Of a stretch of 13,493 bases of DNA, positions 768 through 13,350 are shown in pieces (position 1 is the stretch's first letter; the number at the start of each line of letters is the position of its first letter). The notes under the pieces were generated by a model. That model searched no databases, was not told the origin of the DNA, and was given only the letters and a program-made list of their open reading frames with translations. The translations under genes were made by a program, and so were the position numbers. The DNA lies in the IMG/VR virus record IMGVR_UViG_2690316346_000006, positions 1 to 13,493 of that record. One strand, given 5' to 3'. The DNA comes from a virus. Lineage: Duplodnaviria > Heunggongvirae > Uroviricota > Caudoviricetes.

Positions 768-953
768 AGTTAAAGATTGAACCCTGCCGTCATGTTCTTA
801 CGCCTCGGGCTGGCTACTTAACCCCTGACCACTGTCTGGTAACTCGAAGTATTGCCCTGCATTCTGTGGGGCGGGGTGGGTTGACGCCTGAAACAATAGC
901 ATCATTATTTTTTTTGATGTAAATAGCATCGCTATTGTTTTTTGTTGGGGCAA

Positions 954-976
954 GAAAAAACCACCCTAAGGTGGTT
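954..976 (-). terminator. rho-independent terminator for the minus-strand repressor/antitoxin/toxin transcript
   Basis: Plus strand reads aaaaaACCACCctaaGGTGGTT. On the minus strand this is a 7-bp stem with a 4-nt loop followed by a U-run, about 20 bp after the ParE-like stop at 993. Confidence 0.55.
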
Positions 977-992
977 CTGTCGGCGGGAATAA

Positions 993-1283
993 TTAACTGT
1001 TTTTGCCTGGATACTGTCTTCGAGAATGCACAATATTTACTACTTCTATGCTTGATGCTGTTACTCGGTAAAGGATGATGTAGTTAGGATGAGTTACAAT
1101 TTCACGAAGACCAAGAACTCGCTCGCTTGGAGGATACAGGTAAGGATGCTCTGTGAGCGGCAAAACGGATGTTTCAATTCGAATTTTCATTCTGCGTGCT
1201 GCCGCGGGATTTTCTTTAGCTATGTAGGCTACGATCTGGCGCAAATCATCACGAGCAGATGGTAGCCATAAAACGGGTAACAT
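993..1283 (-). CDS. parE: type II toxin, ParE/RelE superfamily
   Basis: 96 aa; sequence pattern (LPVLWLPSARDDL ... REIVTHPNYIILYRV ... VVNIVHSRRQYP) is typical of ParE-family toxins. Start overlaps the antitoxin stop (TAATG on the minus strand). Confidence 0.75.
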   Translation of the reverse strand: MLPVLWLPSARDDLRQIVAYIAKENPAAARRMKIRIETSVLPLTEHPYLYPPSERVLGLREIVTHPNYIILYRVTASSIEVVNIVHSRRQYPGKNS

Positions 1284-1477
1284 TATTCACCTCTGTGAGT
1301 TGCAGCAGCAATTTGGGCAATAATTTGTTCCATTTCCGCCATTACCTCATCATGCGGAATCGCCGGGCGGGGATCCGCGAGGCTTGCTGCTACTTTGGCC
1401 CGCAGCCATTCGTTGTAACTATTTTCTTGCTCAACTGTCTCAAATTCTGAAACCATTGGGGAAAGGACTGTACTCAT
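1283..1477 (-). CDS. paaA: small antitoxin, PaaA2-like, partner of the ParE-like toxin
   Basis: 64 aa, directly upstream of and overlapping the toxin gene. Segment SPMVSEFETVEQENSYNEWLRAKVAASLADPRPAIPHDEV matches my recollection of PaaA2 from the O157 paaR2-paaA2-parE2 system. AGGAGA lies 10 nt upstream of the ATG. Confidence 0.65.
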   Translation of the reverse strand: MSTVLSPMVSEFETVEQENSYNEWLRAKVAASLADPRPAIPHDEVMAEMEQIIAQIAAATHRGE

Positions 1478-1496: not shown

Positions 1497-1997
1497 TTAG
1501 GCGCGACGGCCTTTTTGTGCAGCTAACCACCGCGCAACCGTACGATCCATTGATTCTTTTTTATCTTTCATCTCCTGAAGCATGTGTTCTTGATCTTCTT
1601 TCGGAAAAGCTCTGAACGTATGGATTAAATCTCGTTCCATCGGCTCTACGGCAAACGGTAGTTCATCCTCTGTTTGTTCTGTGTCTGCTGGTAATGCGAC
1701 TATGTTATCTTGCTGTGGTTCTCGACAATACATCCTTGCAATTTGCAGCAAATCTACCATGTCTGGCCTGATTGACTCAGGGGGAACTTTCAGTAAGCCA
1801 GCAAACTTTAGAACAGCCTCAAGGTTTAGTGGGGTTTGACCATTTAGGTAGTGACTTACCGCCCCTTGTGTTGAAAACCCCATAATTTCCGCCGCACGTT
1901 CCTGAGTCAATCCCAACTGAGATTTCTTTGCCATCCAGATTTCTTTCAGTCTTCTGGCGGCGTTGAGGTCGGTGTCTGACAATGATTTTCTTTTCAT
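1497..1997 (-). CDS. cI-like HTH (XRE-family) repressor, probably PaaR2/RacR-like; ORF track extends to a GTG at 2027
   Basis: HTH motif region QLGLTQERAAEIMGFSTQGAVSHYLNG. Sits divergent to a Cro-like gene with a palindromic operator between them. The ATG at 1995-1997 (MKRKSL...) is favoured over the GTG at 2027, which has no Shine-Dalgarno. Confidence 0.7.
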   Translation of the reverse strand: MKRKSLSDTDLNAARRLKEIWMAKKSQLGLTQERAAEIMGFSTQGAVSHYLNGQTPLNLEAVLKFAGLLKVPPESIRPDMVDLLQIARMYCREPQQDNIVALPADTEQTEDELPFAVEPMERDLIHTFRAFPKEDQEHMLQEMKDKKESMDRTVARWLAAQKGRRA

Positions 1998-2027
1998 ACA
2001 TCCAATTCTAATAAGATTGCTAATCAC

Positions 2028-2108
2028 TTTGAAATAGTATCACTATTTACTTTTAAAAATAACAGTGCTATTAATTATGCATTGGTAACACATCACATAG
2101 GGCGGATT
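2028..2108. promoter_or_regulatory. divergent promoter/operator region between the repressor and the Cro-like gene; contains the palindrome AAATAGT-atc-ACTATTT (2032-2048)
   Basis: AT-rich 81-bp intergenic region between divergently oriented HTH genes. A perfect 7-bp inverted repeat with a 3-bp spacer is read directly from the sequence. Confidence 0.55.
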
Positions 2109-2372
2109 ATGAATCTTGGAGAATATTTGCATCATTTTCATATAACCCAGAGTTCATTTGCTGAGATTGTTGGCGCATCCCAAGGGATGGTCAGCCACGT
2201 TATAACGGGGCGTGCAAAACTTACAGGAGAAAAAATATTACGTTGGTGTGAAGCAACGGGATGGGTGGTGACCCCACATGAGATTGACAGTAAAACCTAC
2301 CCCAACCCAACTGACGGCTTGCCTGCTGAGTTTCAGGCTAACACACAACCATCGGCGGGGGTTGATTCATGA
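2109..2372 (+). CDS. ydaS: Cro-like HTH regulator (YdaS-like); ORF track start 2082, internal ATG at 2109 preferred
   Basis: HTH motif region ITQSSFAEIVGASQGMVSHVITG. Divergent from the repressor. GGGCGG lies 5 nt upstream of the ATG at 2109. Confidence 0.65.
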   Translation: MNLGEYLHHFHITQSSFAEIVGASQGMVSHVITGRAKLTGEKILRWCEATGWVVTPHEIDSKTYPNPTDGLPAEFQANTQPSAGVDS

Positions 2373-2794
2373 AAATCAAGCATGAACACATCCGCATGGC
2401 GATGAAAGCCTGGGCGCATCCGGACGGTGAAAAAGTTCCGGCAGCTGAAATAACCAGGGTTTATTTCGAACTGGGAATGACGTTTCCGGTTCTGCATAAC
2501 GACAGCAAGCACAACACGCTTTATCTCAACACCCAAAAGATTTTCCGTTGGCTGGATAAAGACACCCCTGACGCTGTTGAAAAAATTCAGGCGTTGTTAC
2601 CTGCGATCGAAAGGGCAATGCCACCTCCGCTGGTGGCTCGAATGCGCAGCCACAGTTCAGCTTATTTTCGGGAACTGGTGGAGACGCATGAACGACTGGT
2701 GAGAGACGCTGATGATTTTGTCGCAGTGGCAATCGCCGGTTTCAATCAGATGAACCGTGGTGGCCCGGCAGGAAATGCTGTGGCAGTACATTGA
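2369..2794 (+). CDS. ydaT: YdaT-like protein (proposed CII-like switch component in Rac-type prophages)
   Basis: 141 aa beginning MKIKHEH..., which matches my recollection of the YdaT N-terminus. Start overlaps the Cro-like stop (ATGA), indicating coupling. Confidence 0.5.
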   Translation: MKIKHEHIRMAMKAWAHPDGEKVPAAEITRVYFELGMTFPVLHNDSKHNTLYLNTQKIFRWLDKDTPDAVEKIQALLPAIERAMPPPLVARMRSHSSAYFRELVETHERLVRDADDFVAVAIAGFNQMNRGGPAGNAVAVH

Positions 2795-3936: not shown

Positions 3937-4683
3937 ATGAAAAACATTGCGGCAGCCGGGGTTCTTGAACGTATTCACAGACTTGCACCACAGGGGGCGG
4001 TTCCACCGTACCGGACGGTGGAGGAGTGGCGGGAATGGCAACTTGCTGAAGGACGAAAACGCAGCGAGGAGATTAACCGCCAGAATCGCCAGTTGCGGGT
4101 GGAAAAAATCCTGAATCGTTCGGGCATCCAGCCTCTGCACAGCAAATGCTCGTTTGCGAATTATCAGGTGCAGAACGACGGGCAAAAATACGCGCTGAGC
4201 CAGGCCAAATCCATAGCTGACGAACTGATGACCGGGTGCACGAATTTTGTGTTCAGCGGTAAAACCGGCACCGGGAAAAATCACCTTGCAGCGGCGATGG
4301 GTAACCGGCTGATGGCGAAGGGGCGCAGCGTGATTATCGTCACCGAGTCTGATGTCATGAGCGTGTTGCATGACAGCTACGACAACGGCAAATCCGGTGA
4401 AAAATTTTTACAGGAGCTTTGCGGGGTTGATTTGCTGGTCCTGGATGAAATAGGCATTCAGCGGGAGACGAAAAACGAGCAGGTGGTATTGCACCAGATA
4501 ATTGATCGCCGGACAGCATCACTGTGCAGTGTCGGGATGTTAACAAACCTGAATCATGCCGCAATGAGCACGCTTCTTGGTGAGAGGATTATGGACCGCA
4601 TGACCATGAACGGTTGTCGGTGGGTGACGTTTAACTGGGATAGCTGGCGTTCAAATGTCAGCTTTCCGGGAGTTGTGAAGTAA
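3937..4683 (+). CDS. DnaC-like helicase loader (YdaV-like), copy 1
   Basis: 248 aa with Walker A-like SGKTGTGKNHLAAA and Walker B-like DLLVLDEIG, as in DnaC. Follows the initiator with 6-bp spacing. Confidence 0.85.
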   Translation: MKNIAAAGVLERIHRLAPQGAVPPYRTVEEWREWQLAEGRKRSEEINRQNRQLRVEKILNRSGIQPLHSKCSFANYQVQNDGQKYALSQAKSIADELMTGCTNFVFSGKTGTGKNHLAAAMGNRLMAKGRSVIIVTESDVMSVLHDSYDNGKSGEKFLQELCGVDLLVLDEIGIQRETKNEQVVLHQIIDRRTASLCSVGMLTNLNHAAMSTLLGERIMDRMTMNGCRWVTFNWDSWRSNVSFPGVVK

Positions 4684-4704
4684 TTTTTGTTGGAGGATGT
4701 TTTA

Positions 4705-5430
4705 ATGGAAACTGTATTTGACGCACTGAAAGCACTGAAAAGAGCCTCTTCACATGTGGTGGCGTCCCGCCTTGGAATCAGCCGTGAAGATGCGGTCAAC
4801 GAACTGTGGAAACTGAAGCGCCGTGGTGAAGCGGATAACAAGGGTTCGATGTGGTGGCTGATTCAGGCTGGTGAAAGTGAACCAGTGTCACCGGTACCGA
4901 AAGTGACAGCGCAAATGCTGACTGAGGCGATTGAACAACATGGCCCACAAACGGCGGATGAGCTGGCACTGATGTTCGGGATTACCTCCCGCCGGGCGAA
5001 TTCATCGCTGGCCATGGCAATCAGCAAAGGGCGTCTGATTCGCGTGAATCAGGGCGGTAAATTTCGGTACTGCATACCGGGCGCTGATTTACCGGCAGAG
5101 CCGAAAGCCGCATCCATAGCGGAAACGGATGGTAAAGTCTTTCCTCAGCCAGCAGGTGTTGCGTTACCGGTACAGGAAGCTGCAACACAGGAAGAAATTA
5201 AAACAGAAACTGTGGCGGACATTGTGCAGTCGTTGCCATCGTTCACCGAAACGCAAGCGGATGACCTGGTTTTACCATCGCTGCATATGGCAAACCGCGA
5301 ACTGCGTCGGGCGAAAAGTCATGTCCAGAAGTGGGAGCGTGTCTGCGCCGCGTTGCGGGAGCTGAACAAGCACCGGGATATTGTTCGACAGATTGTCGAT
5401 TCCTCCGGTCGTATTGTGTCGGAAAAGTGA
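4705..5430 (+). CDS. hypothetical protein, possibly YdaW-like; present only in module 1
   Basis: ORF track lists a TTG start at 4687; the ATG at 4705 has GGAGG 8 nt upstream. No catalytic motif recognised. Confidence 0.55.
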
Positions 5431-5445
5431 TTGCCGGGGGCGCTT

Positions 5446-5868
5446 ATGGCAAAAGTATTTACACAGGAAGAGCGGGAAAAAATTAAGGGGCAGGTTGTTG
5501 AACTCGTACGCCAGAGTGGGCGCGAGACGTTACGACAACTGGAAGCTAAAACCGGGGCGACAAGATATTTAATAAGCGTTCTCGCCAGAGAGCTGGTTGC
5601 CAGTGGGGATGTATACAACTCTGGCTACGGGTTATTCCCGTCTGAACAGGCTCGTAAGGACTGGCAAAACGCCCGCAAAAAACTCTCGAGGGCAAAGCTG
5701 AAGAAACCATCTGTGGTTGATCCGGACCTTATCTGGTCATTACCGGACGGAGAAATACGCCGCTACGACAGACATCAGAACATAATCTGTCGCGAGTGCC
5801 GGAAGAGTGAAGTTATGCAGCGTGTACCGGCTTTCTATCAGGGTGATTTTCAGGAGGCGGTACTGTGA
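5446..5868 (+). CDS. hypothetical protein (about 140 aa), paralog of 9117-9539
   Basis: ATG at 5446 preferred over the listed TTG at 5431. The C-terminal ~90 aa are near-identical to the 9117-9539 product; the N-terminal ~50 aa are diverged. Confidence 0.6.
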   Translation: MAKVFTQEEREKIKGQVVELVRQSGRETLRQLEAKTGATRYLISVLARELVASGDVYNSGYGLFPSEQARKDWQNARKKLSRAKLKKPSVVDPDLIWSLPDGEIRRYDRHQNIICRECRKSEVMQRVPAFYQGDFQEAVL

Positions 5869-6282
5869 GTGAAATTAGCTATCAGGCTTCAATTACCGCT
5901 GGCATTCGCATCAAAGGAGAGGAGCATGGAAATAAAACCAGAAGATGAGTTAAGCAATATTGTTTTATTTCCGGTAAAAGAGGATAACCCTCGTAATCAG
6001 GTTAATTTTCTTTATGAGCCATCGGAAAGACCATATTGCCATCACGCTTCTGTCCGGGTTGACGAAAAAGAGCGTCAGGTCCGCTGTAAAATCTGCGGTG
6101 CGGTTGTGGAGCCGTTTGACTGGATGCTCTCTGTGGCGAAAAGAGAAACCAGACTGGCAGATGATGTAAGGCTCTTGCGCCAGGAGGAGCGGGAAAGGCG
6201 AAAAAATATAGAAAAGCTAATCCAGATTGAGCGTAACGCGAAAGCGCGGATACGCAGGGCGACAAAATCCAGAACTGAATAA
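5869..6282 (+). CDS. hypothetical small protein with a putative zinc-ribbon motif (C-H-H ... C-x2-C); copy A
   Basis: Listed start is GTG at 5869. An internal ATG at 5926 has a strong Shine-Dalgarno (AAGGAGaggagcATG) and gives 118 aa. Motif YCHHASVRVDEKERQVRCKICG. Two further copies lie at 9540-9925 and 10695-11035. Confidence 0.6.
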   Translation: MKLAIRLQLPLAFASKERSMEIKPEDELSNIVLFPVKEDNPRNQVNFLYEPSERPYCHHASVRVDEKERQVRCKICGAVVEPFDWMLSVAKRETRLADDVRLLRQEERERRKNIEKLIQIERNAKARIRRATKSRTE

Positions 6283-6309: not shown

Positions 6310-6421
6310 TCCTTAATAACCTTTTTATTCTTTGCCACGGGTTCCGTGGCGGGAGATTATGCCGCGTGAACATGAAGATGAGGTGTACTGGCAATAGCGG
6401 ACACTACCATTTGTTCTTTTT

Positions 6422-7240
6422 TTAAGCAGCCATCTGATGATATTTTTCCCTGAAGGCTGCCGGGGAGATATTCCCCAGACGAGAGTGACGACGCTGACGA
6501 TTGTAGAAAATCTCAATGTATTCCCGTATTACTGAGATGGCTTCATCCCGGTTATTAAAACGATAGTGGCTCAGGCTCTCATTTTTCAGCGTTCCCCAGA
6601 AGCTTTCCATCGGAGCGTTGTCGTAACAGTTACCTTTACGCGACATTGATGTTTTCAGACCAGACTGCTCCTGTATGACCCGGTAATCGTATGCGCAGTA
6701 CTGTGAACCTCGATCAGAGTGGTGGATTAGCCCGGCAGGTGGGCGCTGGCTCCTGAGCGCCATAAACAGGGCTTTACCTGTCAGCTCTTTTGTCATGCGC
6801 TCTCCCATGGCGTAGCCGACAATTTCGCACGTATAAACATCTTTGATGCCAGCGAGGTACAACCATCCCTCCTGTGTGGCAACATACGTCAGGTCCGCCA
6901 CCCAGACCTGATTTGGTGCTGTAGGAGCGAACGTCTGGTTCAGCAGATTTGGCGCAACTGGCAGATTGTGGTTCGAGTTCGTAGTCGCTCTGAACTTGCG
7001 TTTCTGCTTACAGCGTAGCCTTAGCTCCTTACGAAGACGTGCCAGTCGGTCACGACCAACGATGATGCCATTCTCTGCCAGCTCCGTCTGGAGCCGCCGG
7101 GTTCCATATGTTTCGCGAGTGCGGATATGTGCCACCTTAATCTCCAGTTTTAGCCGCTCATCACTTTGTTTTCTGTCTGAGGGTTCATGCTGTACCCAGT
7201 TGTAATAACCGCTCCTGGATACACCAAATACCTGACACAT
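6422..7240 (-). CDS. IS3-family transposase OrfB (DDE catalytic part), expressed as an OrfAB fusion by -1 frameshifting
   Basis: 272-aa ORF with DDE-type transposase signatures (HSDRGSQY ... conserved acidic residues) in the -1 frame relative to orfA. Confidence 0.8.
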   Translation of the reverse strand: MCQVFGVSRSGYYNWVQHEPSDRKQSDERLKLEIKVAHIRTRETYGTRRLQTELAENGIIVGRDRLARLRKELRLRCKQKRKFRATTNSNHNLPVAPNLLNQTFAPTAPNQVWVADLTYVATQEGWLYLAGIKDVYTCEIVGYAMGERMTKELTGKALFMALRSQRPPAGLIHHSDRGSQYCAYDYRVIQEQSGLKTSMSRKGNCYDNAPMESFWGTLKNESLSHYRFNNRDEAISVIREYIEIFYNRQRRHSRLGNISPAAFREKYHQMAA

Positions 7241-7275
7241 CGCTTCAATGGGAAATTGTTGTCGCCATTGTTCGA

Positions 7276-7578
7276 TTAACGCGTATTTTTCAGCGACTCC
7301 TGTGCAAAATACGCTGTTGCTTTTTTTAATATATCTCGCTCAAGGCGAGCTTCATTTAACGCCTTACGCAGTTGCAGAATTTCAGATTCCAGTTCAGCCA
7401 CCGTGCGGGAACCAGGAGTACCGAGCCCTTTTCTGGCGGCGGTAACCCATTGTCCTAAAGTGCCTTCAGGAAGAGATAATCGGGAAGCGCCTTCACTGAT
7501 CGAAAGTTGATTTTCAAGAACCGTTCTGACAGCTTCGGCTTTGAACTCTTTAGAGTAACGTTGGGTTTTTCTGCTCAT
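7276..7578 (-). CDS. IS3-family transposase OrfA (HTH part)
   Basis: 100 aa, MSRKTQRYSKEFKAEAVRTV..., which I recognise as IS600/IS3-group OrfA. Confidence 0.8.
   Translation of the reverse strand: MSRKTQRYSKEFKAEAVRTVLENQLSISEGASRLSLPEGTLGQWVTAARKGLGTPGSRTVAELESEILQLRKALNEARLERDILKKATAYFAQESLKNTR
7320..7327 (-). promoter_or_regulatory. programmed -1 ribosomal frameshift site (A AAA AAG) within the orfA/orfB overlap of the IS3-family element
   Basis: Minus-strand sequence TTAAAAAAAGC lies where orfA and orfB overlap, as is typical of IS3-family elements. Confidence 0.6.
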
Positions 7579-7698: not shown

Positions 7699-7950
7699 GT
7701 AACGCTCGCGGCGTTACAAAAAGTGCAATAGATCGCATCACTTTTATGTCTGGTTTTGCTGATGCGTTAATTCAGGTTGGATGGCTGGTCGAAAATGACG
7801 GAGGGCTTTCTCTACCTAACTTTGAACGTCATAACGGAAAAAGCTCTAAAAAAAACGGGCGGTTACAAACGAGCGAGTAACAAAAATACGCGAACTGAAA
7901 CGAAAAGGTAACGCTGCCAGCGTTACACAAACGGATCAAAAAGCGTTACC
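7699..7950 (+). repeat. putative origin 2 binding sites: two copies of the palindrome GTAACGC-N5-GCGTTAC (7699-7717, 7908-7926) plus half-sites at 7862-7866 and 7943-7949
   Basis: Read directly from the sequence. Located inside the linker-coding region of initiator 2, analogous to the iterons inside initiator 1 but of a different sequence. Confidence 0.45.
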
Positions 7951-8355: not shown

Positions 8356-9102
8356 ATGAAAAATATTGCGACAGGCGGCGTTCTGGAACGCATCCGCCGA
8401 CTGACCCCGCCACATGTAACCGCCCCATTCAGAACGGTAGCGGAGTGGCGCGAGTGGCAACTTGCTGAAGGCCAGAAACGTAGCGAGGAGATCAACCGCC
8501 TGAATCGCCAGTTGCGGGTGGAAAAAATTCTGAATCGCTCAGGCATCCAGCCGTTGCACCGTAAATGCTCGTTTGCGAATTACCAGGTGCAGAACGACGG
8601 CCAGCGATACGCGTTAAGCCAGGCGAAATCCATCGCCGATGAACTGATGACCGGGTGTACAAATTTTGCGTTCAGCGGAAAACCTGGTACCGGGAAGAAT
8701 CACTTAGCGGCAGCTATCGGGAATCGCCTGCTGAAAGACGGTCAGACAGTGATTGTGGTTACCGTGGCTGATGTTATGAGCGCCCTGCACGCCAGCTATG
8801 ACGACGGGCAGTCAGGCGAAAAATTTTTGCGGGAGCTGTGCGAAGTGGATCTGCTGGTTCTTGATGAAATTGGCATTCAGCGCGAGACGAAAAACGAGCA
8901 GGTGGTGCTGCACCAGATTGTTGATCGCCGGACAGCGTCGATGCGCAGCGTGGGGATGCTGACAAACCTGAACTATGAGGTGATGAAAACATTGCTCGGC
9001 GAGCGGGTGATGGATCGCATGGTCATGAACGGCGGGCGCTGGGTGAATTTTAACTGGGAGAGCTGGCGTCCGAATGTTAGCCATTCGAGGGTTGTTAAGT
9101 AG
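8356..9102 (+). CDS. DnaC-like helicase loader, copy 2 (roughly 85% amino-acid identity to copy 1 by eye)
   Basis: 248 aa with SGKPGTGKNHLAAA and DLLVLDEIG motifs; same length and architecture as 3937-4683. Confidence 0.85.
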   Translation: MKNIATGGVLERIRRLTPPHVTAPFRTVAEWREWQLAEGQKRSEEINRLNRQLRVEKILNRSGIQPLHRKCSFANYQVQNDGQRYALSQAKSIADELMTGCTNFAFSGKPGTGKNHLAAAIGNRLLKDGQTVIVVTVADVMSALHASYDDGQSGEKFLRELCEVDLLVLDEIGIQRETKNEQVVLHQIVDRRTASMRSVGMLTNLNYEVMKTLLGERVMDRMVMNGGRWVNFNWESWRPNVSHSRVVK

Positions 9103-9116
9103 TTTCAGGAGGATTT

Positions 9117-9539
9117 ATGGCGAAACCTTTTACTCCCGAACAGCGGGAAGAACTGAAGACGCGAATTGTGGAACTCGTGCATCAGGACGGTCGGGTCACG
9201 ATTCGGCAGTTGTCAGATGAAACAGGTATCAGTCGTGCGTCTGTCGGTCGCTTATGCATAGAACTGGTCGCAAGTGGTGATGTATATAATTCTGGCTACG
9301 GCTTATTCCCGTCTGAACAGGCTCGCAAGGACTGGCAAAGCGCCCGCAAAAAACTCTCGAGAGTAAAGGTGAGGAAACCGGTTGTTGTTGATCCGGACCT
9401 TATCTGGTCATTACCTGACGGAGAAATACGCCGCTACGACAGGCGCCTGAATATAATCTGTCGCGAGTGCCGGAAGAGCGAAGCTATGCAGCGTGTACTG
9501 GCTTTCTATCAGGGTAATTTTCAGGAGGCGATACTGTGA
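9117..9539 (+). CDS. hypothetical protein, paralog of 5446-5868 with a diverged N-terminus
   Basis: 140 aa; C-terminal region (ELVASGDVYNSGYGLFPSEQARKDWQ ... IICRECRKSE ...) nearly identical to copy 1. Confidence 0.6.
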   Translation: MAKPFTPEQREELKTRIVELVHQDGRVTIRQLSDETGISRASVGRLCIELVASGDVYNSGYGLFPSEQARKDWQSARKKLSRVKVRKPVVVDPDLIWSLPDGEIRRYDRRLNIICRECRKSEAMQRVLAFYQGNFQEAIL

Positions 9540-10007
9540 ATGAAATTAGCTATCAGGCTTCAATTACCGCTGGCATTCGCATCAAAGGAGAGGAGCATGG
9601 AAATAAAACCAGAAGATGAGTTAAGCAATATTGTTTTATTTCCGGTAAAAGAGGATAACCCACGTAATCAGGTTAATTTTCTTTATGAACCATCGGAAAG
9701 ACCATATTGCCATCACGCCTCTGTCCGGGTTGACGAAAAAGAGCGTCAGGTCCGCTGTAAAATTTGCGGTGCAGTTGTGGAGCCATTTGACTGGATGCTC
9801 TCTGTGGCGAAAAGAGAAACCAGACTGGCAGATGATGTAAGGCTATTGCGCCAGGAGGAACAGGAAAGGCGGAGAAATATAGAAAAGCTGATACAGATTG
9901 AGCGTAACGCGAAAGCGCGGATACGCGGTAATGACTCCAACTTATTGATAGTGTTTTATGTTCAGATAATGCCCGATGACTTTGTCATGCAGCTCCACCG
10001 ATTTTGA
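9540..10007 (+). pseudogene. zinc-ribbon small gene copy B, 3'-truncated at 9925 by IS1; the ORF reads on into IS1, giving a chimeric 26-aa tail
   Basis: Homology to copy A ends exactly at the IS1 end (...gcgcggatacgc|ggtaatgac). Translation continues ...ARIR then [26 protein letters not shown] from the IS1 sequence. Confidence 0.7.
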
Positions 10008-10445
10008 GAACGACAGCGACTTCCGTCCCAGCCGTGCCAGGTGCTGCCTCAGATTCAGGTTATGCCGCTCAATTCGCTGCGTATATCGCTTGCTGATTAC
10101 GTGCAGCTTTCCCTTCAGGCGGGATTCATACAGCGGCCAGCCATCCGTCATCCATATCACCACGTCAAAGGGTGACAGCAGGCTCATAAGACGCCCCAGC
10201 GTCGCCATAGTGCGTTCACCGAATACGTGCGCAACAACCGTCTTCCGGAGACTGTCATACGCGTAAAACAGCCAGCGCTGGCGCGATTTAGCCCCGACAT
10301 AGCCCCACTGTTCGTCCATTTCCGCGCAGACGATGACGTCACTGCCCGGCTGTATGCGCGAGGTTACCGACTGCGGCCTGAGTTTTTTAAGTGACGTAAA
10401 ATCGTGTTGAGGCCAACGCCCATAATGCGTGCAGTTGCCCGGCAT
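9942..10445 (-). CDS. insB: IS1 InsB (expressed as an InsAB' fusion by frameshifting)
   Basis: 167 aa, ...[62 protein letters not shown]..., recognised as IS1 InsB. Confidence 0.9.
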
Positions 10446-12857: not shown

Positions 12858-13195
12858 AAGGAAACAAAACAGAAACAGCAATTGCCGTTACCTGTTGTTA
12901 CCATGGCAAGTAAACGTATCTCAGGCGAGCGCATTGCGCCGTTCTGACGCAGATAAACTAGCCTGGATAGATGGTGCTGGCAATAAAAAATAGCGTTTTC
13001 TTATCGGTGTCGGTAAGATTGCTGCGGGTGCTTGAGGCTGTCTGCCTCGGGTATGTCACTGTAAGGCAGACAGAGAAAAGCCCCAGTTAACATTACGCGT
13101 CCTGCAAGACGCTTAACATTAATCTGAGGCCCAATCTATGTCTCACAAATGTAGGTTAGCCTCTTACGTGCCGAAAGGCAAGGAGAAGCAGGCTA

Positions 13196-13350
13196 TGAAG
13201 CAGCAAAAGGCGATGTTAATCGCCCTGATCGTCATCTGTTTAACCGTCATTGTGACGGCACTGGTAACGAGGAAAGACCTCTGCGAGGTACGAATCCGAA
13301 TCGGCCAGACGGAGGTCGCTGTTTTCGTAGACTACGAATCTAGAGAGTAA
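13196..13350 (+). CDS. hok: Hok/Gef-family type I toxin (closest by memory to HokD/RelF or HokC)
   Basis: MKQQKAMLIALIVICLTVIVTALVTRKDLCEVRIRIGQTEVAVFVDYESRE; AAGGAG lies 9 nt upstream of the ATG at 13196. The ORF track extends in frame to an ATG at 13138. Confidence 0.85.

What the first reader, a model, noticed from the sequence alone, without database searches (positions are those of the whole stretch)
2028..2108. Genetic switch region with a perfect operator-like palindrome
AAATAGTatcACTATTT (2032-2048) is a perfect 7-3-7 inverted repeat in the 81-bp divergent region between the repressor and the Cro-like gene. The repressor's preferred ATG at 1997 has only a weak TGGA upstream and sits close to the operator region, so its translation signals deserve a direct check. 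Related partial sites lie nearby (for example ACAGTGCTATT at 2074-2084).
Basis: seen in the sequence. Interest (0 to 1): 0.4.

Follow-up and report, generated by a model that had tools for sequence, protein, structure and literature searches.

The report
Lambda-style prophage operator, central site
The palindrome is real and is almost certainly the middle one of three repressor-binding sites in a lambda-like on/off switch of a degraded Shigella/E. coli prophage. It is an uncharacterised but ordinary variant of a well-known design.

Summary
AAATAGT-ATC-ACTATTT sits exactly at 2032-2048. Alone it is weak evidence: 8% of shuffled intergenic regions contain a comparable palindrome. It is, however, one of four 17-bp sites (894-910, 921-937, 2032-2048, 2057-2073) that a matrix built only from other genomes picks out above every shuffle. 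A weak fifth site (2009-2025) is conserved in position. The same two site pairs flank the repressor operon in all ten distinct relatives examined and are absent from CP-933P, Rac and lambda.

The module is a paaR2-paaA2-parE2 / ydaS-ydaT type immunity region. The repressor has a lambda-cI-like N-terminal domain, a PaaR2-like C-terminal tail and no S24 peptidase. Every operator and promoter element lies within 1-2 bp of its position in lambda OR. I therefore read the palindrome as the OR2 equivalent: it covers the -35 of PR and abuts the -35 of PRM.

The weak "TGGA" is best explained by leaderless translation. A conserved -10 (TAGAAT) lies 7 nt upstream of the ATG at 1997. The upstream GTG is not conserved, and leaderless expression was shown experimentally for PaaR2 and lambda cI.

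This is a new member of a known kind, of modest interest.

The parts
2032..2048 (.). Operator O2 (OR2 equivalent): the perfect palindrome AAATAGT-ATC-ACTATTT. It overlaps the PR -35 by 3 bp and the PRM -35 by 2 bp, and its centre is at -43 of the repressor ATG/+1.
   Evidence: It scores 18.5 bits with a PWM built from non-window loci. Its half-sites are 94% conserved in 9 loci and its centre 70%. Its position matches lambda OR2 to 1 bp.
2057..2073 (.). Operator O1 (OR1 equivalent), AAATAACAGTGCTATTA.
   Evidence: 19.6 bits; conserved in all relatives; layout compared with lambda.
2009..2025 (.). Weak operator O3 (OR3 equivalent), TAATAAGATTGCTAATC. It lies between the PRM -10 and -35 and overlaps the -10 by 2 bp.
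   Evidence: It scores only 9.3 bits, which is within shuffle noise. It is conserved in position and its halves are 89-94% conserved. Its offset matches lambda OR3. This part is inferred.
2005..2010 (-). PRM -10 hexamer TAGAAT, 7 nt upstream of the repressor ATG.
   Evidence: Promoter scan hit TTCAAA-17-TAGAAT. It is 96% conserved. Relatives have TAGAAT or TAAAAT 6-7 nt from the ATG.
2028..2033 (-). PRM -35 hexamer TTCAAA, a weak match that abuts O2.
   Evidence: geometry.
2046..2051 (+). PR -35 hexamer TTTACT.
   Evidence: Read from the sequence. Relatives have TTTACA, TTTACT or TTGACT. The position matches lambda PR -35. The scanner did not call it.
2066..2074 (+). PR extended -10, TGcTATTAA, 17 nt from the -35. 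The inferred start is near 2081.
   Evidence: Read from the sequence. TGCTATT is conserved. The identical design TTTACA-17-TGcTATTGT is called as PL in L001 and L002. The scanner did not call it in the window because the hexamer lacks T at position 6.
1497..1997 (-). Repressor gene (166 aa): a lambda-cI-like HTH N-terminal domain, a disordered linker and a PaaR2-like helical tail, with no S24 peptidase domain. It is probably translated from a leaderless mRNA that starts at A1997.
   Evidence: Pfam HTH_3. Lambda cI NTD match at E=3e-9. The last 44 aa are 52% identical to PaaR2. AF2 model.
2109..2372 (+). Cro-like gene (87 aa, in the position of ydaS). Its recognition helix SQGMVSH resembles the repressor's TQGAVSH.
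   Evidence: Pfam/PHROG. Similarity to the repressor HTH is 38% over 48 aa, E=5e-7. An SD is present.
921..937 (.). Left operator OL2, AAATAGCATCGCTATTG, overlapping the PL -35.
   Evidence: 20.4 bits, the top hit in the window.
894..910 (.). Left operator OL1, CAATAGCATCATTATTT, overlapping the PL -10.
   Evidence: 17.8 bits.
893..923 (-). PL promoter: -35 TTTACA (923..918) and TGc-TATTGT (901..893). The spacer is 19 nt in the window because of a T8 run at 908-915.
   Evidence: PL is called with a 17-nt spacer in L001 and L002 and is not called in the window.
953..976 (-). Stem-loop AACCACC-TTAG-GGTGGTT followed by a T-run. It is the probable terminator of the repressor-paaA2-parE2 operon.
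   Evidence: Perfect inverted repeat. It is called as a terminator in L001 and L002 but not in the window.
993..1477 (-). paaA2 (1283-1477) and parE2 (993-1283), toxin-antitoxin cargo co-transcribed with the repressor.
   Evidence: Pfam PaaA2 3e-23 and ParE_toxin 1.8e-17.
2369..2794 (+). ydaT, the cII analogue, 77% identical to CP-933P YdaT.
2362..2379 (.). Exact YdaT box TTGATTCATGAAAATCAA at the ydaS/ydaT junction, in the position of the PRE operator OM.
   Evidence: the site was defined by footprinting in PMC9986795.

Best explanation
The palindrome is the central operator (O2, the equivalent of lambda OR2) of a three-site right operator in the immunity switch of a degraded lambdoid prophage.

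A dimer of the 166-aa repressor probably binds the 17-bp dyad AAATAGY-NNN-RCTATTT through its lambda-cI-like N-terminal domain. The 87-aa Cro-like protein has a nearly identical recognition helix and probably binds the same sites.

Repressor bound at O2 and O1 would cover the -35 and -10 of the rightward promoter PR, which drives cro-like and ydaT. The same protein at O2 abuts the weak -35 of the leftward maintenance promoter PRM and probably stimulates it. The weak O3 lies inside PRM and would shut it off at high repressor or Cro occupancy.

A second pair of sites, 894-937, controls PL in the same way. The PaaR2-type helical tail probably provides dimer-dimer cooperativity and OL-OR looping over about 1.1 kb.

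PRM starts at or next to the A of the ATG at 1997, so the repressor-paaA2-parE2 mRNA is leaderless. This explains why the gene has no usable Shine-Dalgarno sequence.

What is shown: the sites, their recurrence, their conservation, their co-occurrence with the HTH type, and their geometry. What is inferred: protein binding, order of occupancy, PRM activation, looping and the exact transcription starts.
For: (1) Four sites in the window exceed the maximum score of 100 shuffles with a PWM trained only on other genomes. The pattern search gives 4 hits against 0.56 expected.

(2) All ten distinct relatives with this repressor DNA-binding domain (L001, L002, L004, L006, L008, L011-L014 and the L016-19 group) have the same arrangement. 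There is a pair of strong sites 25 bp apart between repressor and cro, and a second pair 24-27 bp apart downstream of the repressor operon. This holds whatever the cargo: ParE/PaaA2, HipA-like, HigBA or none. The controls CP-933P, Rac and lambda OR lack such pairs.

(3) Phylogenetic footprint: half-sites are 0.89-0.97 conserved and centre triplets 0.70-0.85. The PRM discriminator is 0.52 and the cro leader 0.56.

(4) In the 98.9%-identical L001, two of the 17 differences fall on the symmetric positions 7 and 11 of the palindrome (T>C and A>G), which keeps a perfect dyad.

(5) Repressor residues 2-81 align with the lambda cI NTD, including the N-terminal arm and acidic residues at the positions of lambda E34 and D38. 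The Cro-like HTH resembles the repressor HTH at E=5e-7.

(6) Every element lies within 1-2 bp of its lambda counterpart measured from the repressor ATG.

(7) For the leaderless reading: the scanner finds TTCAAA-17-TAGAAT ending 7 nt before the ATG, and this -10 is 96% conserved. In-frame stops or non-start codons replace GTG 2027 in relatives. Repressor genes lack an SD while cro-like genes mostly have one. PaaR2 of CP-933P and lambda cI are leaderless by experiment (PMC8630535).

(8) In CP-933P, PaaR2 and YdaS footprint overlapping sites across PRM and PR and also regulate a PL, and PaaR2 octamerises (PMC8630535).
Against: No binding or transcript data exist for this specificity, and no paper in the library contains these operator strings.

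The palindrome alone is only about 8% unlikely.

Perfect symmetry is not conserved across the family. L004, L006, L008 and L014 have one asymmetric position, so perfection itself is not required.

O3 scores within noise.

The consensus scanner does not call PR on the plus strand; my PR rests on a TG-extended, T6-less -10.

In this window PL has a 19-nt spacer and is not called, so the left promoter may be crippled here.

The repressor shares only 44 C-terminal residues with PaaR2, and the Cro-like protein shares nothing detectable with CP-933P YdaS. Transfer of the CP-933P experimental results is therefore by analogy.
Confidence: 0.85

Rival explanations
1. The palindrome is mainly the Cro-like protein's operator, or the two regulators use different subsets of sites, rather than a shared repressor/Cro site with an OR2-like activating role.
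For: The recognition helices are similar but not identical: TQGAVSHYLN against SQGMVSHVIT. In CP-933P, YdaS and PaaR2 footprints overlap but differ in extent and order. Nothing here measures affinity.
Against: Both HTH types co-occur with the same motif in every relative. The geometry relative to PRM and PR matches lambda, where both proteins use all three sites.
Confidence: 0.1
2. The palindrome is a chance AT-rich inverted repeat inside promoter DNA, with no operator function.
For: 8% of shuffled 111-bp regions of this composition contain a perfect 7-nt-arm repeat. The region is 29% GC.
Against: Four sites exceed all shuffles with an independently trained PWM. Paired sites are conserved in ten loci and absent from the controls. 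The footprint pattern shows conserved halves and a variable centre.
Confidence: 0.03
3. The site is the autoregulatory operator of the toxin-antitoxin pair, bound by a PaaA2-ParE2 complex as in classical type II TA systems.
For: paaA2-parE2 lie in the same operon, and classical TA operons are autoregulated through palindromes.
Against: PaaA2 has no DNA-binding domain (PMC8630535). The same operators occur in relatives whose cargo is HipA-like or HigBA, or which have no TA cargo.
Confidence: 0.02
4. The repressor is translated from GTG 2027 on a leadered mRNA, so the region 1998-2027 is coding and O3 and the PRM elements are misassigned.
For: The ORF is open back to GTG 2027, and some database entries annotate extended N-termini (P0001, P0020).
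Against: In relatives GTG is replaced by GGG, ATT or GAG, or is preceded by in-frame stops 3-5 codons upstream of the ATG. PGAP annotates 166 aa. The alignment with the lambda cI N-terminal arm starts at the ATG.
Confidence: 0.04
5. The inverted repeat acts as an RNA hairpin, for example a terminator or attenuator.
For: It folds as a 7-bp stem.
Against: The energy is only -3.2 kcal/mol with z=-1.9, and 14 of 200 shuffles fold as well. There is no T-tract geometry. The repeat lies upstream of both inferred transcription starts.
Confidence: 0.01

Closest known systems
CP-933P (Sp12) immunity region of E. coli O157:H7: paaR2-paaA2-parE2 / ydaS-ydaT (Jurenas et al. 2021, PMC8630535; Prolic-Kalinsek et al. 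2023, PMC9986795)
   Same: The gene order is the same: regulator-paaA2-parE2 leftward and cro analogue-ydaT rightward. YdaT is 77% identical, and the identical YdaT box sits at the ydaS/ydaT junction. The regulator shares the C-terminal 44-aa tail at 52% identity and lacks an S24 domain. A -10 lies 6-7 nt from the regulator ATG, which is leaderless in CP-933P by 5' RACE. There is a PL with operators downstream of the TA genes, and a DUF1391/ydfABC/dicB-type left arm.
   Different: The regulator's DNA-binding domain is unrelated to that of PaaR2 and is lambda-cI-like instead. The Cro analogue has no detectable similarity to CP-933P YdaS. The operators differ: AAATAGY-N3-RCTATTT against the CP-933P half-site GTTTAGTAA, and the PWM finds no site in L003. 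Here there are three 17-bp sites at lambda spacing, against four 18-bp repeats reported for CP-933P.
Bacteriophage lambda OR/OL with cI and Cro
   Same: The repressor NTD is homologous to the cI NTD at E=3e-9, including the N-terminal arm. The operators are 17 bp. O3, O2, O1 and the PRM and PR hexamers all lie within 1-2 bp of lambda's offsets from the repressor ATG. The repressor mRNA geometry is leaderless. A second operator cluster sits at PL beyond a cargo operon, with paaA2-parE2 in the place of rexAB.
   Different: The operator sequence is unrelated. There is no S24 peptidase/RecA-cleavable C-terminal domain; a roughly 45-aa helical PaaR2-type tail follows a disordered linker instead. 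Only two strong sites are evident at OL. The OL-OR distance is about 1.1 kb rather than about 2.3 kb. The cII analogue is YdaT.
Rac prophage racR / ydaS-ydaT (E. coli K-12)
   Same: A divergent repressor and ydaS-ydaT arrangement, with a DUF1391 gene to the left.
   Different: RacR shows no similarity to this repressor. There are no paired motif sites in the racR-ydaS intergenic region, and there is no TA cargo.

Membership tests
Lambda-type (cI/Cro) lambdoid immunity switch | Divergently transcribed repressor and cro-like HTH genes separated by a short regulatory region | tested here: met
   Repressor 1497-1997 (-) and cro-like 2109-2372 (+), with a 111-bp gap.
Lambda-type (cI/Cro) lambdoid immunity switch | Several related dyad operators in that region, overlapping both divergent promoters | tested here: met
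   O1 and O2 are strong at 19.6 and 18.5 bits. O3 is weak but conserved in position. All overlap the predicted hexamers as in lambda.
Lambda-type (cI/Cro) lambdoid immunity switch | A second operator cluster at a leftward early promoter (OL/PL) | tested here: met
   Sites at 894-910 and 921-937. PL is called at the homologous place in L001 and L002. In the window the PL spacer is 19 nt.
Lambda-type (cI/Cro) lambdoid immunity switch | Repressor N-terminal domain homologous to the lambda cI NTD | tested here: met
   phmmer against PDB 1lmb, E=2.9e-9, residues 2-81. The AF2 model shows a five-helix NTD.
Lambda-type (cI/Cro) lambdoid immunity switch | C-terminal S24 (LexA-like) autocleavage domain giving SOS induction | tested here: not met
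   There is no Peptidase_S24 hit. The C-terminus is a PaaR2-like helical tail.
Lambda-type (cI/Cro) lambdoid immunity switch | Specific binding of repressor and Cro to the operators, and a bistable output | not testable with these tools
   Needs EMSA or footprinting and reporter assays.
PaaR2-PaaA2-ParE2 / YdaS-YdaT immunity module (CP-933P type) | paaA2 antitoxin and parE2 toxin immediately downstream of the regulator, in one operon | tested here: met
   Pfam PaaA2 3e-23 and ParE_toxin 1.8e-17. The genes are 20 nt apart or overlapping.
PaaR2-PaaA2-ParE2 / YdaS-YdaT immunity module (CP-933P type) | Regulator homologous to PaaR2 over its length | tested here: not met
   Only the last 44 residues align, at 52% identity and E=5e-15. 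The DNA-binding domains are unrelated.
PaaR2-PaaA2-ParE2 / YdaS-YdaT immunity module (CP-933P type) | YdaT (cII analogue) with its TTGATT-N6-AATCAA operator at the ydaS/ydaT junction | tested here: met
   YdaT is 77% identical. An exact box is at 2362-2379.
PaaR2-PaaA2-ParE2 / YdaS-YdaT immunity module (CP-933P type) | Cro analogue homologous to CP-933P YdaS, and operators of the GTTTAGTAA type | tested here: not met
   No alignment to YdaS of CP-933P. The operator motif is different, and the two motifs are mutually exclusive between the loci.
PaaR2-PaaA2-ParE2 / YdaS-YdaT immunity module (CP-933P type) | Leaderless regulator mRNA (transcription start = A of the ATG) | tested here: inconclusive
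   The geometry fits: a conserved -10 lies 6-7 nt from the ATG, there is no SD, and no upstream start codon is conserved. The transcription start itself needs 5' RACE.

The most novel reading that the evidence does not exclude
This is an uncharacterised immunity specificity. A lambda-cI-type DNA-binding domain is joined to the PaaR2-type helical tail in place of the SOS-cleavable S24 domain, yet lambda's OR layout is kept almost to the base pair. If the tail alone supports pairwise cooperativity, PRM activation and OL-OR looping, it would show that the lambda switch architecture does not depend on the cI C-terminal domain. It would then give an SOS-blind, purely epigenetic bistable switch that gates a ParE toxin module. 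A further possibility is that the homopolymer tracts in the PL and PR spacers (T6, T8 or T9, and A5 or A6 between isolates) tune or disable the switch in the Shigella sonnei lineage.
Probability: 0.3. Interest if true: 0.45.

Novelty: new member of a known kind. Interest (0 to 1): 0.28.

Why it matters
It provides a precise, testable operator and promoter map for an immunity group that is very common in Shigella sonnei and E. coli prophages. The exact repressor sequence is indexed in about 6000 blocks of the assembly collection, and no paper in the library holds the operator strings.

It shows that the lambda OR design, including site spacing, promoter overlaps and a leaderless repressor gene, persists when the repressor's C-terminal domain is swapped for the PaaR2 tail.

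It also places control of a ParE-family toxin-antitoxin pair under a prophage switch rather than under TA autoregulation, which extends the CP-933P finding to a second specificity. None of this is conceptually new.

Tried and rejected
- A scan of genome contigs with repressor peptides returned no confirmed relatives. I used the search for homologous proteins and the look-up of encoding contigs instead.
- A megablast of 1400-2500 against phage genomes matched only the ydaT end. tblastn of the repressor found only lambda-like cI at about 31% identity. No sequenced phage in that collection carries this immunity region.
- A literature search for six operator strings found nothing. A search for PaaR1/PaaA1/ParE1 gave only passing mentions.
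- The RNA-hairpin reading was rejected: -3.2 kcal/mol, z=-1.9.
- Other inverted repeats in the region are short and not conserved (2013-2025/2105-2117 and 1977-1986/2131-2140). I treated them as chance.
- RacR was considered as a homologue and rejected, with no similarity.
- PDB holds only the PaaR2 N-terminal domain (7nkv, 8c3k, 8c3l). The shared tail therefore has no solved structure to compare with.
- I first read the symmetric T>C and A>G change as compensatory evidence. L014 carries the single-change intermediate (AAATAGT...GCTATTT), so position 7 probably tolerates either pyrimidine. I give the paired change only modest weight.
- The plus-strand promoter-like site TTGACG-16-CATTAT at 881-908 is absent from L002, and I did not pursue it.

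Full report
**1. The observation**

The string AAATAGTATCACTATTT is at 2032-2048 and is a perfect 7-3-7 inverted repeat. It lies between a minus-strand ORF with an HTH_3 domain (1497-1997 from the ATG, open back to GTG 2027) and a plus-strand HTH ORF that starts with ATG at 2109.

With the ATG at 1997 the intergenic region is 111 bp. The 'partial site' ACAGTGCTATT exists but at 2062-2072, not 2074-2084.

The palindrome alone is not strong evidence. In dinucleotide shuffles of the 29%-GC intergenic region, 8% contain a perfect 7-nt-arm repeat with a loop of 0-6, and 1.3% contain one with a loop of exactly 3.

**2. The site is one of a family**

Allowing three mismatches, the pattern occurs four times in the window against 0.56 expected, and 0 of 200 shuffles reach four. 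Two of the extra hits sit 27 bp apart at 894-910 and 921-937.

I built a symmetrised PWM from sites in other genomes only. Exactly four window positions then exceed the best score of 100 shuffles (16.5 bits):

| Site | Score (bits) |
|---|---|
| 921-937 | 20.4 |
| 2057-2073 | 19.6 |
| 2032-2048 | 18.5 |
| 894-910 | 17.8 |

A fifth site at 2009-2025 scores 9.3, which is within noise.

**3. The element**

Pfam and PHROGs identify the following:

- Leftward: an HTH regulator, then PaaA2 antitoxin (1283-1477), then ParE toxin (993-1283).
- Rightward: a Cro-like HTH protein, then YdaT (a cII-like activator), then replication genes.

This is the organisation of the CP-933P immunity region of E. coli O157:H7. 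Its regulators PaaR2, YdaS and YdaT were shown to act like cI, Cro and cII (PMC8630535).

The repressor sequence is 100% identical to Shigella sonnei proteins and is very widespread in assemblies. Two E. coli genomes carry the region at 98.9% identity and about 70 more at about 80%. No phage genome in the phage collection has it. The rest of the window shows a degraded prophage, with an IS3-family element, an IS1 and duplicated replication genes.

**4. The regulators**

Repressor residues 2-81 align with the lambda cI N-terminal domain (PDB 1lmb, E=2.9e-9). The alignment includes the basic N-terminal arm and acidic residues at the positions of lambda E34 and D38.

The last 44 residues are 52% identical to the C-terminus of PaaR2; the rest is unrelated to PaaR2. 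There is no S24 peptidase domain. An AlphaFold model (pLDDT 79) gives a five-helix N-terminal domain, a disordered linker at 93-111 and a helix-turn-long-helix tail.

The family is modular. Relatives carry this HTH plus the tail (166 aa), a different HTH plus the tail (132 aa), or both HTHs in tandem plus the tail (244 aa).

The Cro-like protein has no detectable similarity to CP-933P YdaS. It does resemble the repressor's own HTH at 38% over 48 residues, E=5e-7, with recognition helices TQGAVSH and SQGMVSH. YdaT is 77% identical to the CP-933P protein. Its footprinted operator TTGATT-N6-AATCAA occurs exactly at 2362-2379.

**5. Comparative test of the operators**

I fetched ten distinct loci that encode repressors with this DNA-binding domain, at 45-99% identity. 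They come from E. coli, E. albertii, Salmonella diarizonae and metagenomes.

All of them keep three sites in register between the repressor and cro genes:

- O3: TAATA[AG]..TT[AG][CT]TAATC
- O2: AAATA[GA][CT]-NNN-[GA][CT]TATTT
- O1: AAATAAC-NNN-GCTATTA

Each also has a second pair of strong sites, 24-27 bp apart, just beyond the genes that follow the repressor. This holds whether those genes are PaaA2/ParE, a HipA-like pair, HigB/HTH or others. Loci L011-L014 were not used for training and each gave exactly four strong hits, in two pairs.

The controls have no such pairs: the CP-933P locus, the Rac racR-ydaS region and lambda OR. The motif therefore follows the repressor/Cro HTH type and not the toxin-antitoxin cargo.

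Column conservation gives a footprint:

| Element | Fraction conserved |
|---|---|
| Operator half-sites | 0.89-0.97 |
| Centre triplets | 0.70-0.85 |
| 7 nt between the PRM -10 and the ATG | 0.52 |
| cro leader | 0.56 |

Between the window and its 98.9%-identical relative there are 17 differences in 1.6 kb. Two of them hit the symmetric positions 7 and 11 of the palindrome (T>C and A>G) and leave a perfect dyad. L014 has the single-change form, so I treat position 7 as 'Y' rather than claim strict compensation.

**6. Promoters and geometry**

The scanner finds a minus-strand promoter TTCAAA-17-TAGAAT whose -10 ends 7 nt before the ATG at 1997.

On the plus strand I infer PR as TTTACT (2046-2051), a 17-nt spacer, then TGc-TATTAA (2066-2074). 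The scanner does not call it because the hexamer lacks T at position 6. The same design, TTTACA-17-TGc-TATTGT, is called as the leftward PL in L001 and L002.

I measured each element from the A of the repressor ATG and compared it with the annotated lambda record:

| Element | Window | Lambda |
|---|---|---|
| PRM -10 | 8-13 | 7-12 |
| O3 | 12-28 | 11-27 |
| PRM -35 | 31-36 | 30-35 |
| O2 | 35-51 | 34-50 |
| PR -35 | 49-54 | 48-53 |
| O1 | 60-76 | 58-74 |
| PR -10 | 72-77 | 71-76 |

The palindrome therefore occupies the OR2 position. It overlaps the PR -35 by 3 bp and touches the PRM -35 by 2 bp.

**7. Translation signals**

The 'TGGA' lies at -7 to -4 and pairs weakly with the anti-SD, at -3.6 kcal/mol against -7.4 for the cro-like gene. 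Across relatives the repressor genes range from 0.2 to -4.2, while most cro-like genes have clear SDs.

GTG 2027 is not conserved. In relatives it is GGG, ATT or GAG, or in-frame stops lie 3-5 codons upstream of the ATG. PGAP annotates the 166-aa form.

With a conserved -10 lying 6-7 nt upstream, the simplest reading is a leaderless mRNA that starts at the ATG. This was shown by 5' RACE, N-terminal sequencing and mass spectrometry for PaaR2, and is known for lambda cI. Here it remains an inference.

**8. Mechanism proposed**

- Repressor dimers bind O1 and O2 and block PR.
- The dimer at O2 contacts RNA polymerase at PRM.
- O3 provides negative autoregulation, or is the site of Cro action.
- OL1 and OL2 block PL.
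- The PaaR2-type tail supplies cooperativity and looping between sites 1.1 kb apart. PaaR2 octamerises according to PMC8630535.
- The Cro-like protein competes for the same sites.
- YdaT acts at its box, at a PRE-like promoter.
- With no S24 domain, the switch should not respond to RecA. The CP-933P authors note the same for PaaR2.

Binding, order of filling, activation and looping are all inferred.

**9. Caveats**

- In this window a T8 run (908-915) makes the PL spacer 19 nt and the OL1-OL2 spacing 27 bp. L001 has T6, giving 17 nt and 25 bp.
- Genomes with the identical repressor have T8 or T9, and one has an extra A in the PR spacer. This may be a real down-mutation of PL in the Shigella lineage or an assembly error in homopolymers.
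- The operon terminator (stem 959-976 plus a T-run) is called in relatives but not in the window.

**10. Verdict**

The feature is a heteroimmune member of the known lambda/CP-933P kind of prophage switch, and its operator sequences do not appear in the searchable literature. It is a tidy, testable case and not a surprise.

Noticed in passing
window 893-937 (T-run 908-915); L001, L016-L019: The PL spacer contains a homopolymer run that differs between isolates. It is T8 in the window and three genomes with the identical repressor, T9 in one, and T6 in the 98.9%-identical E. coli locus. T8 gives a 19-nt promoter spacer and 27-bp operator spacing, so PL is probably weakened here. One genome also has A6 instead of A5 in the PR spacer (2054-2058). 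Long-read homopolymer error is not excluded.
   Followed up: partly
window 2362-2379: An exact copy of the experimentally defined YdaT operator TTGATT-N6-AATCAA spans the cro-like stop codon and the ydaT start codon, as in CP-933P. The near-identical E. coli relative has G instead of T at 2362.
   Followed up: partly
alignment A1; loci L004, L006, L013: The repressor family is modular. Some relatives (243-255 aa) carry two different HTH domains in tandem before the shared PaaR2-type tail. These are the lambda-cI-like one found here and the one found alone in 132-aa proteins. This suggests dual-specificity repressors.
   Followed up: no
loci L004, L008, L006, L013 compared with window 993-1477: The slot downstream of the repressor, where lambda has rexAB, holds different cargo in relatives. 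Examples are PaaA2/ParE, a HipA_2 + DUF3037 pair, HigB + HTH antitoxin, or unrelated small genes. The flanking operators are always the same.
   Followed up: partly
window 6422-7578 (-), 9942-10445 (-), 3937-6282 vs 8356-10007: The prophage is degraded. It carries an IS3-family element (orfA/orfB), an IS1 transposase, and a duplicated block of DnaC-like, DUF977 and zinc-ribbon genes.
   Followed up: no
window 13026-13350: A hok/sok type I toxin-antitoxin locus: Rfam sok at 118 bits, and a Hok/Gef ORF at 13138-13350.
   Followed up: no
window 6314-6330: TAATAACCTTTTTATTC is an isolated operator-like hit of 12.7 bits next to the IS element. It is below the 95th percentile of shuffle maxima and is probably chance.
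   Followed up: no
window 881-908 (+): A plus-strand promoter-like match TTGACG-16-CATTAT runs across OL1. It is present in L001 but not in L002, and its significance is unknown.
   Followed up: partly
window 7699-7717 and 7908-7926: Two perfect inverted repeats share the arms GTAACGC/GCGTTAC about 210 bp apart, just right of the IS3-family element. They were not examined.
   Followed up: no
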